Part shown: positions 6,450 to 13,442 of the stretch, one piece after another
Layout: every line of letters begins with the position of its first letter
How positions within the stretch are numbered: position 1 is the stretch's first letter
Assembly (NCBI RefSeq): GCF_009914755.1
Contig: NC_060926.1
DNA length: 64,000 nucleotides
Origin: the human T2T-CHM13v2.0 reference genome, Homo sapiens
Reading direction: 5' to 3' (one strand)
The notes under the pieces: generated by a model
Told to the model about the DNA's origin: nothing
What the model saw: the letters and a program-made list of their open reading frames with translations, nothing else
The model's database searches: none
Program-made: the position numbers and the translations under genes

Positions 6450-6915
6450 TGTAGGAGATCGGTCAGGGTGGTGGGAAAAATTGTAAAAAGATGCAAAGCT
6501 TCATGGAAGGTCGGGAGGTTTTTACAAAAGCTTCAGAAAAGGATTTGGCTGAAGGCAGCCAGATTCTCTTACCTGGGAGATGTAAGGGGATGTAAAGAAA
6601 CTGATCTAGATAAGTTAGTTTACTTAGGCCTCGGAACCTGGCCTTTAATCATCCGCCAGCAGGACTGCTCTCTCGGGGAAGGCGGGGAGGGACCATGTTA
6701 ATTACCCACAAGTGTGTTGACTCAAAGCCTTTGTCATTACATCTGTACTGAATAAATACTCGCAGCGCCGGCTTGTCAGGGCCGCGGTTGCTACAACACC
6801 CTCCTCGGGGTCTGTGAGCAGCCTGGTCCCCTAGCCCGCTTTTTCACTGGATACCTGTGTCTGAGTGTATTCTTTCATCCGTCGTTTGGCCAGGATCTGC
6901 GGGTCGGACCCGGAA
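6450..6915 (+). mobile_element. LTR22-type solo LTR (HERV-K HML-5)
   Basis: Starts TGTAGGAGATCGGTCAGGGTGGTGGG, ends GGGTCGGACCCGG; internal AATAAA; TSD CACCAT at 6444-6449 and 6916-6921. Confidence 0.85.
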
Positions 6916-11174: not shown

Positions 11175-11385
11175 TGGGAGGTAGTATAAATGGCATGATA
11201 ATTCTAAGTATAGGCCTTAGAATACATAACCTCTGGTGCTGTAATTCACAAACTGTATGACCTTGGGCAAATTACCTAAATACTGTATGCCTCAGTTGCC
11301 ACCTGTAAAGTGGAGACAATAACAGTTCCTACCTCATAACATTGCAGAGTGCTTAACACAATGCCTGGTTCAATATGTTAGCTAA
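11175..11385 (+). mobile_element. MIR
   Basis: Core TGACCTTGGGCAAATTACCTAA..TGCCTCAGTT..CTGTAAAGTGG. Confidence 0.75.
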
Positions 11386-11427
11386 AGGTGGTGGTAGTTA
11401 GGGCTAATCTTAATTCACTCTACAATC

Positions 11428-11575
11428 TTGCTACTCAAGTGTAGACCAGCAGCATCAACATCACCTGGGAGCTTATTAGAAATCTCAGACCCTATCCAAG
11501 ACCTACTGAATCAGATTTTGAATTCTGACAAGATCCCTAATGATTAGTGTGCACACTAATGCTTGAGAAGCACTG
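11428..11575 (+). mobile_element. MER5A1-like hAT-Charlie MITE (left arm of inverted repeat)
   Basis: GCTACTCAA..ACCAGCAGCATC..CACCTGGGAGCTT..AGACCTACTGAATCAG..TTGAGAAGCACTG. Confidence 0.8.
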
Positions 11576-12330
11576 CTCTACAATACCCAGACTTGTCCAT
11601 AATGGGGGGAAAAACAACTAAAATTTTTTATTCAATAAATGATCTTACCTGTTCGGCTCTGGCAAGCATAGTTTTAAAAACCAATCTCATGCATCAACCC
11701 TGCCATTTTCCAGTGTCAATCAGCTTTCTCAGGTAGATTACCCTACTGAAGAGTGTACCAATATCGTGTTCTTAGCAATTTATCATTTAAAAACAATCTA
11801 AGTGTACAATATACTAGAGTAGTATAGTAGTACATATACTAGAGACTAGTTTAAACAATAAAGCAACCATTTCCCCAGCATCTTTTTTGCTTCTCCATAA
11901 TCTTATCTCAATTTACGAATGGCAATGCCAAGGCCAAACACTGAAGACAACAAATAATCTCTCCCTACCACACTTCTACAATAACAAGAATCTTAGAATA
12001 TACAGATGTCACAAAATGTGCATCTATATAATGTTCTATAGTTTCCAAAGTGATGTTATACCGTTATTTCATTTAAGCGCCACAATTTTTATTTTACCAA
12101 GGAGCAAAACTGAGTAAGTTTCCTGACGAAAATAATGAGTGTCTACTGTTCTAGGGCCTTTAACAACAACAACAACAAATTTACATTAACGCACATTATG
12201 TGCCAGGAATTGCAAGATGCATAAGATTAGTTTTTAAAATGTGCCTGCTAGAGCTGAACAGGTAAGATCATTTATTAAAGGATTTCAGGATTTTTTTTTT
12301 CCATTATGGACAAGCCTAGGTGTTGCAGAG

Positions 12331-12477
12331 CAGTGCTTCTCAAAGCACTGATGTGCACACTAATCATTAGGGAGCTTGTCAGAATTCAAAATCTGACTCA
12401 GTGGGTCTGGAGTGGTGTCCGAGATTTAACAAGCTCCCAGGTGATGTTGATGCTGCTGGTTGGCATTTGAGTAGCAA
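12331..12477 (-). mobile_element. MER5A1-like MITE (right arm of inverted repeat)
   Basis: Reverse complement of the 11428-11575 copy. Confidence 0.8.
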
Positions 12478-12509
12478 AGCTGTGCCGTATTTAAAGAATT
12501 AGCCCTAAC

Positions 12510-12680
12510 TACCAATATGAAAACTTTACATCCCTGAATCTTCAATTACTCTGAGGTGACACTACTATTATTCTGGCTTCACAGTCGAGAAGGCACTGAG
12601 AAGTGAACTTTCCAGAGATCACAGAGCTGAGATGTGGGAAGGCAGGATTCAAACTTAGGTTGACTGACTGCAGGGCATTT
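12510..12680 (-). mobile_element. MIR
   Basis: AGAAGTGAACTTTCCAGAGATCACAGAGCT..GGATTCAAAC. Confidence 0.6.
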
Positions 12681-13385: not shown

Positions 13386-13442
13386 CTTCCGGCTTTCAGT
13401 TCCCCGCGCCCAGGCAGGTCACGGGCAGCCGCCTGGGCGGGG
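13386..13442. promoter_or_regulatory. ETS/GABP motif (CCGGAAG, minus strand, 13386-13392) and GC box (GGGCGGGG, 13435-13442)
   Basis: Motif matches within the CpG island. Confidence 0.5.

What the first reader, a model, noticed from the sequence alone, without database searches (positions are those of the whole stretch)
11643..12267. The inverted repeat carries a consensus 5' splice site on each strand: possible self-masking splice switch
Seen: the inner, non-transposon part of the arms contains CAG|GTAAGA on the minus strand (exon end 11649, GT at 11648-11647) and CAG|GTAAGA on the plus strand (exon end 12261, GT at 12262-12263). Both lie in a ~21-nt block that is exactly complementary between the arms. 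In CHMP3 pre-mRNA the upstream arm reads UCUUACCUG, like the U1 snRNA 5' end (ACUUACCUG), and would pair over the downstream donor. Candidate minus-strand acceptors sit in the loop: ctcttcag| at 11746 (97-nt exon whose first in-frame codon after phase-0 exon 1 is TAG) and tttgttgtcttcag| at 11941 (292 nt). Inference: a poison exon for an ESCRT-III gene gated by RNA structure. The mirror donor could serve an antisense lncRNA; I recall one annotated here as CHMP3-AS1, unverified.
Basis: partly seen in the sequence, partly recalled or inferred. Interest (0 to 1): 0.78.

Follow-up and report, generated by a model that had tools for sequence, protein, structure and literature searches.

The report
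Mirrored splice donor in intronic inverted duplication
An old 300-base inverted duplication inside the first intron of CHMP3 puts the same strong splice-donor motif on both DNA strands; one copy is the known first-exon donor of the antisense RNA CHMP3-AS1, and the other is most likely a silent by-product rather than a regulated poison-exon switch.

Summary
Two arms (11392-11695 and 12216-12514) are 82% complementary and lie around a unique 520-nt spacer. Each arm has a dispersed MER5-type MITE core. The inner 120 nt occur only twice in the genome, so this is a local inverted duplication.

CAG|GTAAGA sits on + at 12259-12267 and on - at 11651-11643, inside a 21-nt perfect block. The two donors are one event seen twice.

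The plus copy is the RefSeq exon-1 donor of CHMP3-AS1 (12084-12261). The minus copy has no annotated use. Its proposed acceptors are ordinary: 46% and 32% of all minus-strand AGs score as well. The 21-nt block is not exceptional (P=0.63). Mismatches show no strand bias towards G·U pairs (15 vs 14).

In silico the CHMP3 pre-mRNA buries the donor in a ~300-bp stem. That looks like a lock, not a switch.

No junction, NMD or cross-species data could be queried. No paper on a CHMP3 poison or cryptic exon was found.

Verdict: an ordinary instance of a known kind; the poison-exon reading is untested and unlikely.

The parts
11392..11695 (.). Left arm of the inverted duplication. It is the downstream arm in CHMP3 pre-mRNA.
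   Evidence: blastn 250/306 identical to the reverse complement of 12216-12514. Collinear pieces I1-I6.
12216..12514 (.). Right arm of the inverted duplication. It is the upstream arm in CHMP3 pre-mRNA. Its inner 46 nt form the 3' end of CHMP3-AS1 exon 1.
   Evidence: hub annotation for the exon.
11696..12215 (.). Unique AT-rich spacer of 520 nt (GC 32-35%). It holds the annotated CHMP3-AS1 start at 12084.
   Evidence: Genome search finds only itself plus four 45-nt 87% hits on another chromosome. Composition.
11424..11576 (.). MER5-type (hAT MITE-like) dispersed repeat core of the left arm.
   Evidence: 566 first-look candidates in the genome; 40 were scored. The partner arm is 87% identical and the 38 other copies are 71-80%. 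Sub-threshold Rfam mir-544 hit at 11455-11544, 42.2 bits against a gathering score of 66.5. The MER5A1/miR-544b link comes from passages of PMC5424272.
12330..12477 (.). MER5-type core of the right arm.
   Evidence: 87% to the left core; mir-544 sub-threshold hits at 12358-12450.
12259..12267 (+). CAG|GTAAGA, the annotated 5' splice site of CHMP3-AS1 exon 1 (exon end 12261).
   Evidence: hub RefSeq table (NR_183901.1 exon 12084-12261).
11643..11651 (-). CAG|GTAAGA, the mirror copy in CHMP3 sense orientation (exon end would be 11649). A pseudo-donor with no annotated use.
   Evidence: Fully paired with 12259-12267 in the predicted ensemble.
12084..12261 (+). CHMP3-AS1 exon 1, a first exon that needs no acceptor.
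   Evidence: Hub annotation. The downstream AS1 acceptors all end in AG at the stated coordinates.
11746..11753 (-).
   Evidence: Present. Pyrimidines at -20..-5 are 9 of 16, and 46% of 4087 minus-strand AGs score as well or better. Translation.
11941..11954 (-).
   Evidence: Present. 10 of 16 pyrimidines, and 32% of AGs score as well or better. First in-frame stop after 10 codons.
11627..11632 (-). AATAAA hexamer 17 nt after the pseudo-donor, followed by a U-rich stretch.
12274..12279 (+). ATTAAA hexamer 13 nt after the AS1 donor, followed by a T10 run. It is the mirror of the hexamer at 11627-11632.

Best explanation
A roughly 300-bp segment of CHMP3 intron 1 already contained a MER5-type MITE flanked by unique sequence. 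It was duplicated locally in inverted orientation tens of millions of years ago, leaving two arms around a unique 520-nt spacer. The unique inner part of the segment carries a near-consensus 5' splice site followed by a poly(A)-like hexamer, so the duplication placed this module on both strands.

The plus-strand copy is used. It is the donor of the first exon of the lncRNA CHMP3-AS1. That RNA starts in the spacer and so contains only one arm, which leaves its donor free of the hairpin.

The minus-strand copy lies in CHMP3 sense orientation, deep in intron 1. It is most likely a silent pseudo-donor: it lacks a good partner acceptor, and in the pre-mRNA it is transcribed about 600 nt after a ready-made complement. 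It is therefore expected to be zipped into a long imperfect duplex. The masking is a passive, constitutive consequence of the duplication, not an evolved switch.

Shown: the repeat anatomy, the copy numbers, the motif positions, the identity of 12261 with the annotated exon end, and the predicted pairing. Inferred: the age, the silence of the minus donor, and masking in vivo.
For: - Repeat anatomy.
- The inner part has 2 copies in the genome, the spacer is unique, and the core is a dispersed repeat whose closest relative by far is the partner arm (87% vs at most 80% for the 38 other scored copies). Together these indicate duplication after the MITE inserted.
- K2P distance between the arms is 0.14.
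- 12261 is the annotated AS1 exon-1 end, with CAG|GTAAGATC, the best U1 match among the 6 AS1 donors read.
- In the AS1 context the donor is predicted partly open (P unpaired 0.07-0.55). In the CHMP3 context with both arms it is <= 0.001.
- Arm-arm cofold is -408.7 kcal/mol, against -151.7 +/- 5.9 for 20 shuffles. The inner 64-nt duplex is -84.3.
- The candidate acceptors are ordinary.
- A second CAGGTAAGA lies on the same strand of the same intron at 6575, outside this repeat and also without an annotated exon.
- There is no strand bias of G·U-compatible mismatches (15 vs 14 of 29 transitions).
- The 21-nt perfect run is unexceptional (P=0.63).
- No paper reports a CHMP3 poison or cryptic exon.
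Against: - No RNA-seq junction, CAGE, 3'-end or editing data could be queried, so low-level use of donor 11649 is not excluded.
- The identical sequence works as a donor on the other strand, so the motif and its immediate exon-side context are splicing-competent.
- My crude acceptor measure also scores two annotated AS1 acceptors at 9 of 16, so it discriminates poorly.
- Mismatches between the arms are clumped: four perfect runs of 21 nt or more, P=0.001 under uniform scatter. I have not explained this.
- The fold evidence is weak as a test. Without the upstream arm, or with base-pair span capped at 150 nt, most donor bases are still predicted paired.
- Presence of the duplication in other species was not testable.
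Confidence: 0.7

Rival explanations
1. The minus-strand donor ends a poison exon of CHMP3 (97 or 292 nt). Its inclusion is gated by the hairpin and released by helicases, ADAR editing or slow elongation, lowering CHMP3 output through NMD.
For: - Near-consensus donor with 8 contiguous U1-matching positions.
- AGs at 11746 and 11941 give exons of 97 and 292 nt, both frame-shifting and both with in-frame stops.
- The donor is fully paired in the two-arm context.
- The class exists: structure-controlled poison exons in BRD2/BRD3 (abstract of PMC10789245), and complementary regions that obstruct cryptic splice sites (passages of PMC8052449).
Against: - No annotated exon (hub table).
- The acceptors are no better than 46% and 32% of all minus-strand AGs.
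- A stem of about 300 bp is a lock rather than a tunable gate.
- No pairing-preserving bias on the CHMP3 strand.
- No special conservation of the donor block between the arms.
- Stop codons are expected in any intronic insert.
- No literature support.
Confidence: 0.08
2. The module acts as a U1-binding site coupled to a poly(A) signal. On each strand the strong 5' splice site sits 13-17 nt upstream of a poly(A) hexamer and a U-rich tract. U1 bound there (telescripting), or the hairpin itself, suppresses premature cleavage and polyadenylation in CHMP3 intron 1. On the plus strand the same arrangement lets CHMP3-AS1 elongate past an early poly(A) site.
For: - AATAAA at 11632-11627 (minus) followed by a U-rich tract, and ATTAAA at 12274-12279 (plus) followed by T10.
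- PMC8052449 reports enrichment of transcript 3' ends and poly(A)-seq clusters in and between paired complementary regions, and discusses telescripting (passages).
Against: - Poly(A) hexamers are common in AT-rich introns.
- No 3'-end data were available.
- No paper links CHMP3 with intronic polyadenylation.
- The arrangement is duplicated by descent, not independently evolved.
Confidence: 0.08
3. The relevant product is the long intronic double-stranded RNA itself, acting as an ADAR substrate, a small-RNA source or an innate-immune ligand. On this view the donor motifs are incidental passengers.
For: - A predicted, nearly continuous stem of about 300 bp.
- Complementary regions are enriched in A-to-I sites in general (PMC8052449 passages).
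- The MITE cores resemble the mir-544 precursor below threshold.
Against: - The two published CHMP3 editing sites I found (hg19 chr2:86754288 in PMC9241197; chr2:86504167 in PMC10401594) appear to lie tens of kb from the repeat. That placement rests on my recalled gene coordinates, and I could not map the sites between assemblies.
- No editing database was available.
- Intronic duplexes are usually degraded with the intron.
Confidence: 0.1

Closest known systems
Pairs of conserved complementary regions (PCCRs) that obstruct cryptic or inactive splice sites in human introns (Kalmykova et al. 2021, PMC8052449; abstract and passages read)
   Same: Two complementary intronic segments lie in one pre-mRNA, one of them covering a consensus-like but unused 5' splice site. 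A transcript end (the AS1 start) lies between the arms.
   Different: PCCRs are defined by cross-species conservation, which I could not test. This pair is a 300-bp duplication-derived repeat rather than a short conserved pair. [quoted passage not shown]
Structure-controlled poison exons of BRD2 and BRD3 (Petrova et al. 2024, PMC10789245; abstract only)
   Same: The proposed logic: RNA pairing sets the inclusion of an NMD-inducing exon.
   Different: There the poison exons are observed, conserved and validated by minigenes and antisense oligonucleotides. Here no exon is observed, and the acceptor side is weak.
Local stem-loops that occlude a 5' splice site, such as MAPT exon 10 and SMN2 exon 7 TSL2 (recalled from general knowledge, no call)
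   Same: Base pairing competes with U1 for the donor.
   Different: Those are short local hairpins on real alternative exons. This is a 300-bp long-range duplex with a 520-nt loop on an unannotated site.
Inverted-repeat Alu pairs in introns, which form dsRNA, attract ADAR editing and are resolved by DHX9 (recalled from general knowledge, no call)
   Same: An intronic inverted repeat of about 300 bp containing a transposon, expected to form dsRNA.
   Different: This is not two independent insertions. The arms share unique flanking sequence on both sides of the MITE, so it is a segmental inverted duplication.

Membership tests
Annotated lncRNA 5' splice site (CHMP3-AS1 exon 1) | The exon end in the curated annotation coincides with a GT-type donor on the right strand. 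| tested here: met
   The hub table gives exon 12084-12261 on the plus strand. The sequence is CAG|GTAAGATC at 12259-12269.
Structure-masked 5' splice site | A complementary segment in the same transcript pairs over the donor. | tested here: met
   In silico only. The MFE and the ensemble pair 11651-11643 with 12259-12267 at p=1.0. Caveat: the donor is also predicted mostly paired in the controls without the arm.
Structure-masked 5' splice site | The pairing is maintained by selection (compensatory or wobble-tolerant changes on the transcribed strand, conservation across species). | tested here: not met
   Of 29 transition mismatches, 14 give G·U in CHMP3-sense RNA and 15 give G·U in the opposite strand (binomial p=1.0). 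Cross-species conservation was not testable.
Structure-masked 5' splice site | The donor becomes active when the structure is disrupted. | not testable with these tools
   Needs a minigene, antisense oligonucleotides or knockdown RNA-seq.
Poison (NMD-inducing) cassette exon | A functional 3' splice site paired with the donor across an exon of typical size. | tested here: inconclusive
   AGs at 11746 and 11941 have 9 and 10 pyrimidines of 16 at -20..-5. Annotated acceptors in the window score 9-13. 46% and 32% of 4087 AGs do as well or better.
Poison (NMD-inducing) cassette exon | A premature stop codon upstream of later exon junctions. | tested here: met
   The 97-nt exon opens with TAG. The 292-nt exon stops after 10 codons. 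Both lengths are 1 mod 3. This is trivial for intronic sequence.
Poison (NMD-inducing) cassette exon | Observed inclusion that rises on NMD inhibition. | not testable with these tools
   No junction data were available. No paper was found.
MER5-type hAT MITE (core of each arm) | A dispersed, multi-copy, palindromic element of about 150-190 bp matching the family consensus. | tested here: inconclusive
   Multi-copy: 566 candidates. Sub-threshold similarity to the mir-544 model, a miRNA matched to MER5A1 in PMC5424272. No Dfam or Repbase consensus was available, so the family name is partly recalled.
Single DNA transposon with long terminal inverted repeats (considered as an alternative origin) | The whole unit, including the inner arm parts and the spacer, recurs elsewhere in the genome. 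| tested here: not met
   The inner arm part has 2 places only, both at this locus. The spacer is unique.

The most novel reading that the evidence does not exclude
The duplication built a two-sided switch. CHMP3-AS1 starts between the arms, and its RNA is perfectly complementary to the upstream arm of the CHMP3 pre-mRNA (12216-12514), whereas the intramolecular partner is only 82% complementary. Antisense transcription, or the antisense RNA itself, could therefore strip the mask from the CHMP3-sense donor and poly(A) module at 11651-11627. That would trigger a poison exon or premature polyadenylation and tune the dosage of an ESCRT-III subunit. None of this was tested. It is merely not excluded by the anatomy.
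Probability: 0.04. Interest if true: 0.65.

Novelty: new member of a known kind. Interest (0 to 1): 0.2.

Why it matters
If the minus-strand donor were used, CHMP3 would have a structure-locked unproductive isoform, which is of some interest for ESCRT-III dosage control and as a target for antisense oligonucleotides. As it stands, the locus shows how a local inverted duplication hands the same splice-donor module to both strands. One copy was taken up by an antisense lncRNA and the other was automatically silenced by pairing. This is an ordinary example of known principles, namely long-range intronic pairing over cryptic sites and lncRNA exons built from repeats, and it does not open a long-standing question.

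Tried and rejected
- Single transposon with long inverted ends: rejected. The inner arm part and the spacer are single-locus, and I saw no target-site duplication when reading the flanks.
- Two independent MITE insertions: rejected. Homology runs beyond the dispersed core on both sides.
- Special conservation of the donor block: rejected (P=0.63 for a run of 21 or more).
- Strand-specific selection for pairing: no signal.
- Rfam: only sub-threshold mir-544 and SNORD101 hits. I treat the SNORD101 hit as chance.
- Retrocopy test: the candidate exon sequences have no other genomic copy, so no processed copy records their inclusion. This is a weak test.
- Literature:
  - CHMP3-AS1 appears in 2 papers (listing only).
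  - CHMP3 with 'poison exon' gives 0 papers.
  - CHMP3 with 'cryptic exon' gives 2 papers, both unrelated on reading passages.
  - CHMP3 with 'intronic polyadenylation' gives 0.
  - CHMP3 with NMD/UPF1/'exon inclusion' gives 0.
  - CHMP3 does not occur in the held supplements of PMC8052449.
- Unpaired probability as a masking test proved poorly discriminating.
- No MaxEnt or SpliceAI scoring, no junction, CAGE, poly(A) or editing databases, and no other mammalian genome were available.

Full report
**What is in the sequence.**
- The plus strand reads CAG|GTAAGA at 12259-12267, with exon end 12261. The minus strand reads the same 9-mer at 11651-11643, with exon end 11649.
- Both lie in a perfectly complementary 21-nt block, 11634-11654 / 12256-12276.
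- They belong to one inverted repeat whose collinear pieces (I1-I6 of 7 pairs) join into arms 11392-11695 and 12216-12514. blastn gives 250 of 306 identical with 9 gap columns, E 2e-81. A global alignment gives 256 identical of 310 columns.
- The arms are separated by 520 nt.

**What the repeat is.**
- The middle of each arm (11424-11576; partner 12330-12477) is a dispersed repeat. The genome search gave 566 first-look candidates, of which 40 were scored: the query itself, the partner arm at 87%, and 38 other copies at 71-80%.
- Rfam gives only sub-threshold mir-544 matches over both cores (42.2, 28.2 and 27.4 bits against a gathering score of 66.5).
- PMC5424272 (abstract and passages) matches the palindromic MER5A1 consensus to miR-544b. 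I therefore call the core MER5-type. No repeat library was available, so that name is partly recalled.
- The inner 124 nt (11577-11700), which hold the donor, occur at only two places in the 3.1-Gb assembly: here, and in the other arm at 79%.
- The spacer is unique apart from four 45-nt hits on another chromosome.
- Homology therefore extends beyond the transposon on both sides, and the partner is by far the closest copy. This is a local inverted duplication made after the MITE inserted. It is not two independent insertions and not one element with long ends.
- The K2P distance between the arms is 0.14, with 29 transitions and 8 transversions. By inference this puts the event tens of millions of years back. 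I could not check other species.

**Is it more than chance?**
- The 9-mer occurs three times in the window, against 0.65 +/- 0.82 expected; 4 of 100 shuffles reach three. Composition alone gives 0.50.
- Two of the three are copies by descent. The 'donor on each strand' is therefore one event, and its symmetry is automatic.
- The third copy (6575, minus) sits in the same CHMP3 intron, outside this repeat, and also has no annotated exon.
- The 21-nt perfect block is the fourth longest of the alignment, after runs of 30, 22 and 22. A run of 21 or more appears in 63% of 20,000 shuffles of the match string.
- Four such runs together are unusual (P=0.001). Mismatches are therefore clumped, and I have not explained why.

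**The plus-strand donor.**
- The hub's RefSeq table gives CHMP3-AS1 exon 1 as 12084-12261, so this donor is already annotated.
- It is the best U1 match among the six AS1 donors I read. The others are AAG|GTTCTC, ACG|GTATGT, CAG|GCAGGT, CAG|GTGACA and ACG|GTGAGC.
- AS1 starts in the spacer, so its RNA holds only the right arm. In that context the donor bases have unpaired probabilities of 0.07-0.55.
- As a first exon it needs no acceptor.

**The minus-strand donor.**
- In CHMP3-sense RNA (12560 to 11350, 1211 nt), the minimum-energy and centroid structures pair the arms almost end to end (-542 kcal/mol).
- All nine donor bases have unpaired probability <= 0.001, with partners 12259-12267.
- The arms cofold at -408.7 kcal/mol, against -151.7 +/- 5.9 for 20 shuffles. 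The inner 64-nt parts alone give -84.3. Each arm alone gives about -70.
- The donor lies in the first 50 nt of the downstream arm to be transcribed and faces the last-made part of the upstream arm, so early zipping is plausible. This is inference.
- The folding test is weak, however. Without the upstream arm only 3 of 9 donor bases are open. With base-pair span capped at 150 nt, 8 of 9 are still paired.

**Is there a poison exon?**
- The two proposed acceptors exist. Their pyrimidine counts at -20..-5 are 9 and 10 of 16, and 46% and 32% of the 4087 minus-strand AGs of the window do as well or better.
- Seven annotated acceptors score 9-13, so this crude measure separates poorly.
- Exon 1 ends in phase 0. 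The 97-nt exon opens with TAG, and the 292-nt exon stops after 10 codons. Any intronic insert here would carry stops.
- Of 29 transition mismatches between the arms, 14 would be G·U in CHMP3-sense RNA and 15 in the opposite strand (p=1.0). Pairing on the CHMP3 strand therefore shows no sign of selection.
- No RefSeq CHMP3 exon lies here.
- The literature searches found nothing relevant:
  - CHMP3 with 'poison exon' gave 0 papers.
  - CHMP3 with 'cryptic exon' gave 2 papers, both unrelated in the passages read.
  - CHMP3 with NMD terms gave 0.
  - CHMP3-AS1 is mentioned in 2 papers (listing only).

**Most likely mechanism.**
- The duplication copied a donor-plus-poly(A)-hexamer module onto both strands. 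On the minus strand AATAAA lies at 11632-11627 followed by a U-rich tract. On the plus strand ATTAAA lies at 12274-12279 followed by T10.
- The plus copy became, or already was, the AS1 first-exon donor.
- The minus copy is a pseudo-donor that is passively and constitutively buried. A stem of about 300 bp is a lock, not a switch.
- I put this reading at about 0.7. The rivals are:
  - a U1/poly(A)-site suppression module, 0.08;
  - function as dsRNA, 0.1.
- The readings are not mutually exclusive.

**Comparison with what is known.**
- The general principle is in print. [quoted passage not shown] CHMP3 is not in the three supplementary files held.
- BRD2 and BRD3 have validated structure-controlled poison exons (PMC10789245, abstract only).
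- This locus shares the anatomy but lacks an observed exon and any sign of selected pairing.
- The published CHMP3 editing sites I found could not be mapped to this assembly. By my recalled gene coordinates they lie far from the repeat.

**Verdict.** This is a new instance of a known kind and of low interest, unless junction data show use of 11649.

Noticed in passing
window 6565-6612, minus strand: A pyrimidine-rich tract (13 of 16 at -20..-5) ends in CAG directly joined to GTAAGAGA. This is a 3' splice site abutting a 5' splice site, the motif of a recursive splice site, inside CHMP3 intron 1. It is also the third CAGGTAAGA of the window.
   Followed up: partly
window 11627-11632 (minus) and 12274-12279 (plus): Each donor copy is followed within 13-17 nt by a poly(A) hexamer (AATAAA / ATTAAA) and a U-rich run. 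The duplicated module is therefore a 5' splice site plus a poly(A)-like signal.
   Followed up: partly
window 11300-11390 and 12520-12680: When I read them, the sequences just outside the two arms look like MIR-type SINE fragments in opposite orientations. They are not part of the 82% homology. The family call is from memory only.
   Followed up: no
window 13411-13421, plus strand: The annotated CHMP3-AS1 exon ending at 13413 has a GC donor (CAG|GCAGGT). This exon overlaps CHMP3 exon 1 in antisense (hub table).
   Followed up: no
window 11392-11695 vs 12216-12514: Mismatches between the arms are clumped. There are four perfect runs of 21-30 nt, P=0.001 under uniform scatter, and three of them lie in the MITE core. 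The cause is unknown; gene conversion, alignment effects or hypermutable patches are possibilities.
   Followed up: partly
window 11805-11849: A 45-nt stretch of the spacer (query positions 110-154) matches four places on another chromosome at 87%. It is probably a low-complexity or short tandem motif.
   Followed up: no
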